DNA from: Escherichia coli
GTDB taxonomy: Bacteria > Pseudomonadota > Gammaproteobacteria > Enterobacterales > Enterobacteriaceae
NCBI RefSeq assembly: GCF_045037415.1
Contig: NZ_CP173438.1
DNA length: 64,000 nucleotides
Strand: one strand, 5' to 3'
Part shown: positions 39,434 to 40,072 of the stretch, piece by piece
Numbering within the stretch: position 1 is the stretch's first letter
How the letters are laid out: each line of letters opens with the position of its first letter
The notes under the pieces: model-generated
What the model saw: only the letters and a program-made list of their open reading frames with translations
Database searches by the model: none
What the model was told of the DNA's origin: nothing
Made by a program: the position numbers and the translations under genes

Positions 39434-40072
39434 ATGAAAAATGTACTGATTCTTGGTGCTGGCGGTCAGATAGCCCGCCATGTGATTAATCAACTGGCAG
39501 ATAAACAAACCATTAAACAAACTTTATTTGCCCGTCAGCCAGCAAAAATCCACAAACCCTATCCAACTAATAGCAAGATTATTATGGGGGATGTACTGAA
39601 TCATGCAGCACTGAAGCAGGCCATGCAGGGACAGGATGTTGTGTATGCCAACCTTACGGGGGAAGATTTAGATATTCAGGCAAATTCAGTGATCGCTGCG
39701 ATGAAAGCCTGTGATGTTAAACGTCTGATCTTTGTTCTTTCCCTCGGTATTTATGATGAAGTTCCAGGAAAATTTGGCGAATGGAATAATGCAGTTATTG
39801 GTGAACCCCTAAAACCATTCCGCAGGGCTGCGGATGCAATTGAGGCTTCTGGACTGGAATATACAATTCTTCGCCCTGCCTGGCTGACTGATGAAGATAT
39901 TATTGATTATGAGCTTACCTCACGCAATGAACCATTCAAAGGTACGATCGTATCACGTAAGAGTGTCGCAGCATTAATCACAGATATCATCGATAAACCT
40001 GAGAAACACATTGGTGAGAATATAGGCATCAATCAACCCGGGACTGATGGTGATAAGCCCTTCTTCATGTAA
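39434..40072 (+). CDS. ymjC: NAD(P)-binding Rossmann-fold protein (NmrA/SDR-a type), 212 aa; intact counterpart of the K-12 ymjC/ymjD fragments as far as I recall
   Basis: N-terminal GAGGQIA dinucleotide-binding motif. Confidence 0.6.
   Translation: MKNVLILGAGGQIARHVINQLADKQTIKQTLFARQPAKIHKPYPTNSKIIMGDVLNHAALKQAMQGQDVVYANLTGEDLDIQANSVIAAMKACDVKRLIFVLSLGIYDEVPGKFGEWNNAVIGEPLKPFRRAADAIEASGLEYTILRPAWLTDEDIIDYELTSRNEPFKGTIVSRKSVAALITDIIDKPEKHIGENIGINQPGTDGDKPFFM

What the first reader, a model, noticed from the sequence alone, without database searches (positions are those of the whole stretch)
39434..40072. Intact NAD(P)-binding gene where K-12 has only ymjC/ymjD fragments
A complete 212-aa Rossmann-fold ORF with a GAGGQIA motif sits between ycjY and mpaA. 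As far as I recall, the K-12 counterparts are annotated as small pseudogene fragments. If so, this strain retains a functional member of the ycjY-ymjC-mpaA peptidoglycan-peptide operon that K-12 has lost.
Basis: partly seen in the sequence, partly recalled or inferred. Interest (0 to 1): 0.3.

Follow-up and report, generated by a model that had tools for sequence, protein, structure and literature searches.

The report
Intact ymjC reductase gene, truncated in K-12
This E. coli strain carries the full 212-residue version of a small NAD(P)H-dependent reductase gene of which K-12 keeps only a stump, but the full gene is the commoner state in E. coli, already has a solved structure, and came in with a foreign gene cassette rather than with the cell-wall-peptide genes next to it.

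Summary
Window 39434-40072 (+) is an intact 212-aa NAD(P)-binding ORF between ycjY and mpaA. K-12 keeps only its first 46 codons, as ymjC.

- **ymjD is a different gene's remnant.** It is a fusion remnant of a second alpha/beta-hydrolase gene, and this window carries the same deletion (24-aa ORF, 39363-39437). The window is therefore an intermediate decay state.
- **The intact gene is ordinary.** About 2900 of 5426 complete E. coli genomes have it. PGAP annotates it as an SDR family oxidoreductase, and the Shigella orthologue has a solved structure (PDB 3QVO).
- **It does not belong to the murein-peptide genes by descent.**
  - pgrR-ycjY-(hydrolase 2)-SDR is a low-GC island flanked by 37-nt direct repeats, inserted between mppA and mpaA.
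  - Citrobacter, Enterobacter, Pseudocitrobacter and 174 E. coli genomes have mppA directly beside mpaA.
  - In 86 loci from other bacteria the SDR's recurrent neighbours are YcjY-like hydrolases, a PgrR-like regulator, a classical SDR and an Old Yellow Enzyme. MpaA, YcjG and MppA are never among them.

The protein is most likely an NADPH-dependent BLVRB-like atypical SDR. It is under purifying selection but is dispensable in E. coli. Low novelty.

The parts
37127..37163 (.). Left direct repeat bounding the pgrR-ycjY-SDR island (AAATGCAAACAACTTCCATCAAAAAAGTGACAAAGGA)
   Evidence: The 37-nt repeat pair is 32/37 identical, and 28/30 over the first 30 nt, with 3111-bp spacing. None of 100 shuffles gave 2 matches. 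E. coli ECONIH1, which lacks the island, has a single copy.
37406..38305 (-). pgrR (ycjZ), a LysR-type regulator transcribed divergently from ycjY; part of the island
   Evidence: Pfam HTH_1 + LysR_substrate. It is 99-100% identical to the annotated PgrR. PgrR-like genes of 71-87% identity sit in the same position beside YcjY-like genes in Pseudocitrobacter, Afipia, Mesorhizobium and Hyphomicrobium.
38431..39363 (+). ycjY, an alpha/beta hydrolase (annotated start 38443, 306 aa) with a G-x-C-x-G nucleophile elbow
   Evidence: Pfam Peptidase_S15/DLH. PDB 5XB6 'Uncharacterized protein YcjY' matches at E 1e-199. The motif GICAG is visible in the translation.
39363..39437 (+). ymjD-like 24-aa ORF (MKHIQIRNSDMAWHIAANNLGKVS): fusion remnant of a deleted second alpha/beta-hydrolase gene. 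Its start overlaps the ycjY stop (TAATG) and its stop overlaps the SDR start (ATGA).
   Evidence: The alignment with O157:H7 shows a deletion of about 0.93 kb (1818-bp span against the 939-bp query; alignment). The intact 310-aa hydrolase 2 in strain 873.10 starts MKHIQIRNSDMAWHIAAN. K-12 ymjD is MKHIQIRNSDMDWHIAANNLG.
39434..40072 (+). The finding: an intact 212-aa NAD(P)H-binding atypical SDR (full-length orthologue of K-12 ymjC; PGAP name 'SDR family oxidoreductase', WP_000800177.1)
39573..40237 (.). Stretch absent from K-12 (665 bp): SDR codons 47-212, the hairpin and the island's 3' end. There is 1 nt of microhomology at the junction.
   Evidence: Exact junction mapping. The K-12 junction is present in 2293 of 5426 genomes.
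40091..40117 (+). 12-bp-stem hairpin, 18 nt after the SDR stop, followed by UUAUUAAACUUAUU
   Evidence: MFE -17.8 kcal/mol over the 75-nt stretch folded, z = -3.0. It is conserved in K. aerogenes, C. koseri and Pseudocitrobacter with two compensatory pairs (AT..AT to CC..GG). In the first two it lies between the SDR and the next gene, adh_short.
40238..40274 (.). Right direct repeat, marking the island's right boundary; the native mpaA upstream region begins here
   Evidence: The K-12 deletion ends 0-1 nt before it.
40363..41091 (+). mpaA (murein tripeptide amidase): a native neighbour, not part of the island
   Evidence: NCBIfam NF007897 equivalog, 478 bits. It lies directly beside mppA in Citrobacter, Enterobacter mori, Pseudocitrobacter and 174 E. 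coli genomes.

Best explanation
The ORF is the full-length form of the gene whose 5' stump K-12 calls ymjC.

Shown here. It encodes a 212-residue single-domain Rossmann protein of the NAD_binding_10 / BLVRB-like 'atypical SDR' type. It is the last gene of a horizontally acquired unit: divergent LysR regulator PgrR, hydrolase YcjY, a second hydrolase, and this SDR. In other Enterobacteriaceae the unit continues with a classical SDR and an Old Yellow Enzyme. In the E. coli lineage the unit landed in the mppA-mpaA intergenic region, where it is flanked by a 37-nt direct repeat. It has been decaying stepwise since. First the second hydrolase was deleted, leaving the ymjD remnant; that is the state of this window. 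Then, in the K-12 lineage, the 3' three-quarters of the SDR were deleted, leaving ymjC.

Inferred. The protein is an NADPH-dependent reductase. This rests on the invariant G-x-x-G-x-x-A motif and on invariant Arg34 in the stretch the model places at the end of the second beta strand. It probably acts on a small carbonyl, quinone or unsaturated substrate that the adjacent Cys-nucleophile, dienelactone-hydrolase-like enzymes make or consume, under PgrR control. It is probably co-transcribed and translationally coupled with ycjY, because the stop and start codons overlap (TAATG, ATGA). The substrate is unknown. Its position beside mpaA is an accident of where the island inserted, not evidence of a role in murein-peptide recycling.
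For: Identity
- Pfam NAD_binding_10 matches over the full length, E 3e-54.
- PDB 3QVO (Shigella flexneri) aligns over all 212 residues at about 98.6% identity, E 2.6e-138. The next hits are the Veillonella SDR 3R6D/4HNG, then ChuY and BLVRB.
- The AF2 model has pLDDT 89.5. Its Foldseek top hits are 3QVO, 4HNG (a related entry, 4HNH, is a complex whose ligand is cut off in the listing), BLVRB and ChuY.

Constraint
- All 41 residues that are at least 98% conserved in 81 homologues are retained, including GKFGEWNN, Y107, R34 and R147-P-x-W-L (A1).
- dN/dS is 0.084 against the O157 allele and about 0.04 against Klebsiella and Citrobacter.

Island
- Direct repeats at 37127-37163 and 40238-40274.
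- An empty site in ECONIH1 and in 174 E. coli genomes.
- mppA directly beside mpaA in Citrobacter, Enterobacter mori and Pseudocitrobacter.
- Island GC is 43.9%, against 54-55% for mpaA and ycjG.

Cassette
- YcjY-like hydrolases are next to the SDR in 35 of 86 loci, often as two copies. A PgrR-like LysR is there in 21, adh_short in 15 and OYE in 12. MpaA, YcjG and MppA are there in none.
- DNA homology to the K. aerogenes cassette runs from window 37407 to 40149. It stops where adh_short starts in K. aerogenes.

Order of decay
- The ymjD junction is in 3948 genomes and the K-12 ymjC junction in 2293. That count fits the ymjC deletion being nested within the ymjD-deleted group, as it is in K-12 itself.
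- Hydrolase 2 is present in 1272 genomes.
Against: - No enzymatic or expression data exist for this protein. The two literature searches (by gene name and by PDB code) found no functional study.
- The classical SDR YxxxK motif is absent (Y107-x5-K113). The most conserved motif lies in a low-confidence loop (pLDDT 64-67), so the catalytic mechanism is unclear.
- In E. coli the gene's cassette partners are missing (hydrolase 2 in this window; adh_short and OYE in all E. coli examined). The gene has been lost or disrupted independently several times: the K-12 deletion, an IS5 insertion, an IS1 replacement and loss of the whole island. It may have little current function here.
- The island contains no integrase or other mobility gene, so the mechanism of insertion is not shown.
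- K-12 literature lists ycjY-ymjDC-mpaA as one PgrR-repressed operon (PMC5934670, PMC3946193). A regulatory link to mpaA therefore exists at least in K-12.
Confidence: 0.8

Rival explanations
1. One reading: the SDR is a working member of a ycjY-SDR-mpaA murein-peptide recycling operon. It would process a product of MpaA or YcjG, and K-12 has lost that step.
For: The gene has the same orientation as ycjY and mpaA and lies close to them. K-12 literature groups ycjY-ymjDC-mpaA as one PgrR-repressed operon (PMC5934670; PMC3946193). Overexpressing ycjY causes filamentation (PMC3614548).
Against: - mpaA, ycjG and mppA are adjacent without pgrR, ycjY or the SDR in Citrobacter, Enterobacter, Pseudocitrobacter and 174 E. 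coli genomes.
- None of 86 SDR loci outside E. coli has MpaA, YcjG or MppA within 5-8 kb.
- A conserved hairpin and 230 bp, including mpaA's native upstream region, separate the SDR from mpaA.
- The known murein tripeptide pathway (MppA uptake, MpaA cleavage, YcjG epimerisation, peptidase) has no redox step. This point rests on established knowledge, not on a test here.
Confidence: 0.07
2. The ORF is intact only by inertia. It is a functionless leftover of a decaying island, on its way to becoming a pseudogene.
For: Partner genes have been lost: hydrolase 2 in this window, adh_short and OYE in all E. coli examined. The gene has been inactivated several times in E. coli, and 42% of genomes carry the K-12 deletion. 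The Shigella orthologue has G115V at a residue invariant across the family.
Against: dN/dS is 0.084 between E. coli alleles, from 10 synonymous and 3 non-synonymous differences. All 41 invariant residues are retained. The gene is kept in about 53% of genomes across several lineages. In Lactobacillaceae the SDR occurs without the hydrolases, so it can function alone.
Confidence: 0.13

Closest known systems
E. coli K-12 ymjC (b4525) and its full-length orthologues (PGAP 'SDR family oxidoreductase' WP_000800177.1; PDB 3QVO, Shigella flexneri 'NmrA family protein')
   Same: The chromosomal position is the same. The first 46 residues are identical to K-12 YmjC. Identity to the 3QVO chain is about 98.6% over 212 residues, and SK1144, an annotated genome, is 100% identical at the DNA level.
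   Different: K-12 lacks codons 47-212. The 3QVO protein differs at 3 residues, including G115V at a family-invariant glycine.
Biliverdin IX-beta / flavin reductase BLVRB (PDB 1HDO) and the anaerobilin reductase ChuY (PDB 5FFQ, 5GUY)
   Same: All are single-domain proteins of about 205-215 residues with a Rossmann fold and no extended substrate domain, and all have the glycine-rich NADP(H) motif. Foldseek TM is 0.78-0.81 and sequence E is 1e-5 to 1e-6.
   Different: Identity is only 19-20%. This family has its own invariant motif, G-K-F-G-E-W-N-N, plus Y107, which these sequence searches did not place in BLVRB or ChuY. The genomic context is hydrolases, not heme-utilisation genes. The substrate is unknown.
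Veillonella parvula SDR (PDB 3R6D / 4HNG / 4HNH)
   Same: It is the closest solved non-orthologous relative (E 1.7e-19, 29-30% identity, TM 0.89-0.90) and shares the C-terminal G-x-P-G-T-x-x-D-K-P tail.
   Different: It is a structural-genomics entry with no assigned function. Its gene context was not examined.
Dienelactone-hydrolase-type catabolic clusters (LysR regulator + Cys-nucleophile alpha/beta hydrolase + reductase)
   Same: There is a divergent LysR regulator. The two hydrolases hit Pfam DLH and have a G-x-C-x-G nucleophile elbow. Reductases follow, among them an OYE ene-reductase in the full cassette.
   Different: There is no dioxygenase, cycloisomerase or maleylacetate reductase (iron-ADH type). 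The resemblance is in architecture only, and no substrate was tested.

Membership tests
Pfam PF13460 NAD_binding_10 (atypical SDR, BLVRB-like) | Full-length profile match above the gathering score | tested here: met
   184.1 bits against a cut-off of 27.2; residues 8-189 cover profile positions 1-184 of 184.
Pfam PF13460 NAD_binding_10 (atypical SDR, BLVRB-like) | N-terminal glycine-rich dinucleotide-binding motif, and a basic residue after beta-2 for the NADP 2'-phosphate | tested here: met
   G8-A-G-G11-Q-I-A14 and R34 are invariant in 81 homologues. The cofactor itself was not tested.
Pfam PF13460 NAD_binding_10 (atypical SDR, BLVRB-like) | Single-domain Rossmann fold | tested here: met
   AF2 pLDDT 89.5, pTM 0.89. 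Foldseek hits 3QVO, 4HNG, 1HDO and 5FFQ at TM 0.78-0.90.
Pfam PF13460 NAD_binding_10 (atypical SDR, BLVRB-like) | NAD(P)H-dependent reductase activity | not testable with these tools
   This needs the purified protein.
Classical SDR (adh_short) | Catalytic Ser...Tyr-x-x-x-Lys | tested here: not met
   There is no YxxxK. The conserved pair is Y107-x5-K113, and S103 is below 75% conserved. There is no adh_short hit in Pfam.
Orthologue of K-12 ymjC | Same locus and identical shared sequence | tested here: met
   46 of 46 N-terminal residues are identical, and the flanking ycjY and mpaA are 96-99% identical.
Murein tripeptide recycling gene set (mppA-mpaA-ycjG) | Conserved co-occurrence with mpaA, ycjG and mppA across species | tested here: not met
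   0 of 86 SDR loci outside E. coli carry them. mppA-mpaA-ycjG occur together without the SDR in three genera and in 174 E. coli genomes.
Murein tripeptide recycling gene set (mppA-mpaA-ycjG) | Co-transcription with mpaA and repression by PgrR in a strain with the intact gene | not testable with these tools
   The only information available is the K-12 literature (PMC5934670, PMC3946193).
Genomic island (horizontally inserted segment) | Flanking direct repeats, with a single copy at empty sites | tested here: met
Genomic island (horizontally inserted segment) | Absent from the same site in related genera; deviant base composition | tested here: met
   Island GC is 43.9%, against 49.2% for the window and 54-55% for mpaA and ycjG.
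Genomic island (horizontally inserted segment) | Integrase or other mobility gene within the island | tested here: not met
   The only ORFs matching a protein family or an annotated gene in 37164-40237 are pgrR, ycjY, the ymjD remnant and the SDR.

The most novel reading that the evidence does not exclude
The K-12 'ycjY-ymjDC-mpaA operon', and with it PgrR's reputation as a peptidoglycan-recycling regulator, could be a by-product of island decay.

PgrR arrived as the cognate regulator of a foreign hydrolase/reductase cassette. The K-12-type deletion removed the SDR 3' end, the conserved hairpin and the rest of the island. It ends exactly at the island's right boundary. That would fuse PgrR-controlled ycjY transcription to mpaA. 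In strains like this one, with the SDR and hairpin intact, mpaA would then run mainly from its native promoter. The cassette would serve an unrelated substrate, for example an unsaturated lactone or ester.
Probability: 0.2. Interest if true: 0.45.

Novelty: already known. Interest (0 to 1): 0.18.

Why it matters
It matters little for the gene itself. This is a common, already annotated accessory gene, its orthologue's structure is solved, and it is treated as a variable 'putative oxidoreductase' in E. coli pangenome work (PMC9602453).

The useful by-product is context. The pgrR-ycjY-SDR block is an inserted cassette, not part of the ancestral murein-peptide locus. K-12 represents its most decayed common state. 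That cautions against extending the K-12 operon and regulon model (PgrR, ycjY-ymjDC-mpaA) to the roughly 55% of E. coli with other alleles. It also points to YcjY-type Cys hydrolases, not MpaA, as the partners to consider when looking for the enzyme's substrate.

Tried and rejected
- NCBIfam gave no equivalog for the SDR; the best hits were 18-24 bits against cut-offs of 367 or more.
- A literature search for the PDB codes 3QVO, 5XB6, 4HNG and 3R6D found nothing. The original PgrR paper (doi 10.1111/gtc.12026) is not held.
- I looked for remnants of the cassette's adh_short and OYE genes downstream of the SDR. There were no credible hits.
- The consensus terminator scan did not flag the post-SDR hairpin. 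Its only + strand promoter-like hit between ycjY and mpaA lies inside the SDR gene. Its promoter-like hits in the pgrR/ycjY spacer include the published pgrR promoter hexamers, TAGACC-18-TATCAT. I therefore do not claim that the hairpin is a terminator. In Klebsiella and Citrobacter the homologous hairpin sits inside the operon, before adh_short.
- Whether ECONIH1-type empty sites are ancestral or arose by recombination between the direct repeats could not be settled. Their MppA and TyrR proteins are identical to those of island-bearing strain SK1144, which favours secondary loss within E. coli. The other genera show that the mppA-mpaA adjacency is ancestral for the family.
- I rejected classifying the protein as a BLVRB or ChuY orthologue, given 19-20% identity and a different context.

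Full report
**1. The observation**

The window holds an ATG-initiated ORF at 39434-40072 (+). It encodes 212 residues and begins MKNVLILGAGGQIA. The surrounding genes are:

- mppA, 35456-37090 (-)
- pgrR, 37406-38305 (-)
- ycjY, 38431-39363 (+)
- this ORF
- mpaA, 40363-41091 (+; NCBIfam MpaA equivalog, 478 bits)
- ycjG, tpx and tyrR

The ORF matches Pfam NAD_binding_10 end to end (E 3e-54), so it is a real gene.

K-12 MG1655 carries ymjC (60 aa) and ymjD (21 aa) in the same interval. K-12 YmjC is the first 46 residues of the window protein followed by 14 unrelated residues. Exact mapping shows that K-12 lacks 665 bp, equivalent to window 39573-40237, with 1 nt of microhomology at the junction.

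**2. What ymjD is**

O157:H7 has about 0.93 kb more between ycjY and the SDR. PGAP annotates it there as a frameshifted second alpha/beta hydrolase. Strain 873.10 has this gene intact: 310 aa, starting MKHIQIRNSDMAWHIAAN.

Both the window and K-12 have the same deletion of this gene. It leaves a short fusion ORF:

- Window 39363-39437: MKHIQIRNSDMAWHIAANNLGKVS.
- K-12 ymjD: MKHIQIRNSDMDWHIAANNLG.

ymjD is therefore the remnant of a different gene, and the window is not the complete state of this locus. In the window the ycjY stop overlaps the remnant's start (TAATG), and the remnant's stop overlaps the SDR start (ATGA). That arrangement suggests coupled translation within one transcript.

**3. 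How common each state is**

Counts are among 5426 complete E. coli genomes.

| State | Genomes |
|---|---|
| SDR segment that K-12 lacks is present | 2900 |
| Second hydrolase present | 1272 |
| ymjD deletion junction present | 3948 |
| K-12 ymjC deletion junction present | 2293 |
| No island at all (mppA directly beside mpaA) | 174 |

By subtraction, window-like genomes (ymjD deletion, SDR intact) number about 1650, or 30%. K-12-like genomes are 42%, the fullest E. coli state 23%, and the empty site 3%.

Further independent inactivations exist. IS5 sits inside the SDR in strain CB7286, and IS1 replaces it in strain 873.10.

PGAP names the intact gene 'SDR family oxidoreductase' (WP_000800177.1 in SK1144, whose DNA is 100% identical to the window here). 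One pangenome study already treats ymjC as a variable 'putative oxidoreductase' gene (PMC9602453).

**4. The gene belongs to an inserted cassette, not to the murein-peptide genes**

Several lines of evidence agree.

- **Direct repeats.** A 37-nt direct repeat (32/37 identical; 28/30 over the first 30 nt) lies at 37127-37163 and 40238-40274. It brackets pgrR-ycjY-remnant-SDR. ECONIH1 has one copy and no island.
- **Other genera.** In Citrobacter, Enterobacter mori and Pseudocitrobacter, mppA and mpaA are divergent neighbours about 180 bp apart, followed by ycjG, tpx and tyrR.
- **Base composition.** The island is 43.9% GC and the SDR 42.9%, against 54-55% for mpaA and ycjG.
- **Distant homologues.** In 80 loci from other species, a tblastn search with the window's proteins found YcjY-like hydrolases, usually two in tandem, and a divergent PgrR-like LysR next to the SDR. 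This holds in Pseudocitrobacter, Afipia, Mesorhizobium, Hyphomicrobium, Stenotrophomonas, Paraburkholderia, Caballeronia and Achromobacter. Identity to the Alphaproteobacteria (Afipia, Mesorhizobium, Hyphomicrobium) is remarkably high: YcjY 82-84%, PgrR 71-73%, SDR 68-69%. Several Bacteroidota have hydrolase(s) plus the SDR. Lactobacillaceae have the SDR alone. No locus has MpaA, YcjG or MppA.
- **Neighbour clustering.** Across 86 loci the recurrent neighbours are the hydrolase (35 loci, 54 ORFs), LysR (21), an HxlR regulator (19), an adh_short SDR (15) and an OYE (12).
- **The full cassette.** In C. koseri and K. aerogenes/Salmonella it is LysR, hydrolase 1, hydrolase 2, SDR, adh_short and Oxidored_FMN. 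It sits in island-like contexts (Phage_AlpA, Replicase, NikA-like, defence genes beside proBA).
- **Extent of homology.** DNA homology between the E. coli island and that cassette runs from window 37407 to 40149. It stops where adh_short begins in K. aerogenes, and no remnant of adh_short or OYE is left.

**5. The protein**

The closest solved structure is the Shigella flexneri orthologue 3QVO (about 98.6% identity). Next come an uncharacterised Veillonella SDR (3R6D/4HNG), then ChuY/ShuY and human BLVRB.

An AF2 model (pLDDT 89.5) finds the same set by fold, at TM 0.78-0.90.

Forty-one residues are at least 98% conserved across 81 homologues, and all are present in the window protein. They include:

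- L7-G-A-x-G11-x-x-A14
- R34
- Y71-A-N-L
- G105, Y107 and E109
- G112-K-F-G-E-W-N-N119
- R147-P-x-W-L
- the C-terminal G-x-K-P

There is no classical YxxxK. The GKFGEWNN loop is the least confident part of the model.

dN/dS is 0.084 against the O157 allele and about 0.04 against Klebsiella and Citrobacter.

I infer an NADPH-dependent reductase of the BLVRB-like atypical SDR type that is still under purifying selection. Both hydrolases carry a G-x-C-x-G elbow and hit Pfam DLH. Together with the OYE and adh_short of the full cassette, this suggests a pathway on an ester or lactone with an activated double bond or carbonyl. That is inference only.

**6. The SDR-mpaA spacer**

A 12-bp-stem hairpin (40091-40117; MFE -17.8 kcal/mol over the 75-nt stretch folded, z -3.0) follows the stop codon. 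It is conserved in Klebsiella, Citrobacter and Pseudocitrobacter with two compensatory pairs. In the first two it lies inside the operon, before the RBS of adh_short. I therefore do not call it a terminator.

The K-12 deletion removes the hairpin and ends 0-1 nt before the right direct repeat, which is exactly the island's edge. I cannot explain that coincidence.

K-12 literature lists ycjY-ymjDC-mpaA as one PgrR-repressed unit (PMC5934670, PMC3946193). Whether that holds when the SDR and hairpin are intact is untested.

**7. Verdict**

The intact-versus-truncated claim is right. The ymjD attribution is wrong, and the peptidoglycan-operon role is unsupported.
- The gene is a common, annotated accessory gene whose orthologue has a solved structure, so the finding is already known and of low interest.
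- The modest added value is recognising that the pgrR-ycjY-SDR block is a decaying inserted cassette, with K-12 as its most degraded common allele.

Noticed in passing
window 39363-39437: A 24-aa ymjD-like ORF, the fusion remnant of a deleted second alpha/beta hydrolase. It overlaps the ycjY stop (TAATG) and the SDR start (ATGA). The same deletion junction is present in 3948 of 5426 E. coli genomes.
   Followed up: yes
window 37127-37163 and 40238-40274: 37-nt direct repeats bracket a 3.1-kb low-GC island (pgrR, ycjY, ymjD remnant, SDR) inserted between mppA and mpaA. 174 E. coli genomes and three other genera have the uninterrupted site.
   Followed up: yes
window 40237/40238: The right end of the K-12 665-bp deletion falls within 0-1 nt of the island's right boundary (the start of the right direct repeat). 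No mechanism was identified.
   Followed up: partly
window 37406-38305 (pgrR): PgrR, named as a peptidoglycan-recycling regulator, lies inside the island. It has 71-87% identical counterparts placed divergently beside YcjY-like hydrolases in Pseudocitrobacter and Alphaproteobacteria that have no mpaA nearby. Its primary target may be the cassette.
   Followed up: partly
window 38431-39363 (ycjY); L091:5000-5932 (hydrolase 2): Both hydrolases have a cysteine at the nucleophile elbow (GICAG and GVCGG), as in dienelactone hydrolases, rather than serine. YcjY is 82-84% identical to the proteins of Afipia, Mesorhizobium and Hyphomicrobium, which implies fairly recent inter-class transfer.
   Followed up: partly
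L002:2500-3430 (O157:H7): The second hydrolase is annotated as frameshifted in this O157:H7 strain. The sequence has a long G run (GTGTGTGGGGGGGGGTGG) at the codons for the G-V-C-G-G-G-G nucleophile motif, which probably causes the frameshift.
   Followed up: no
PDB 3QVO compared with window SDR residue 115: The crystallised Shigella flexneri orthologue has Val in place of Gly115, a residue invariant in 81 homologues (GKFGEWNN). The solved protein may be a compromised allele.
   Followed up: no
window 40091-40117: The hairpin after the SDR stop is conserved in Klebsiella, Citrobacter and Pseudocitrobacter with two compensatory base-pair changes. In Klebsiella and Citrobacter it precedes the RBS of the next cassette gene.
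   Followed up: partly
window 39424-39436 compared with L002:3425-3453: Relative to O157:H7, the window and K-12 lack 12 bp just upstream of the SDR coding region (ATGA[GAAATATTATGA]AAAATG). This turns the 216-aa reading, as called in many assemblies, into the 212-aa one.
   Followed up: no
window 40303-40362: The mechanical ORF list starts mpaA at a TTG (262 aa), but annotated genomes start it at the ATG at 40363 (242 aa). The NCBIfam MpaA model aligns from residue 21 of the longer ORF.
   Followed up: no
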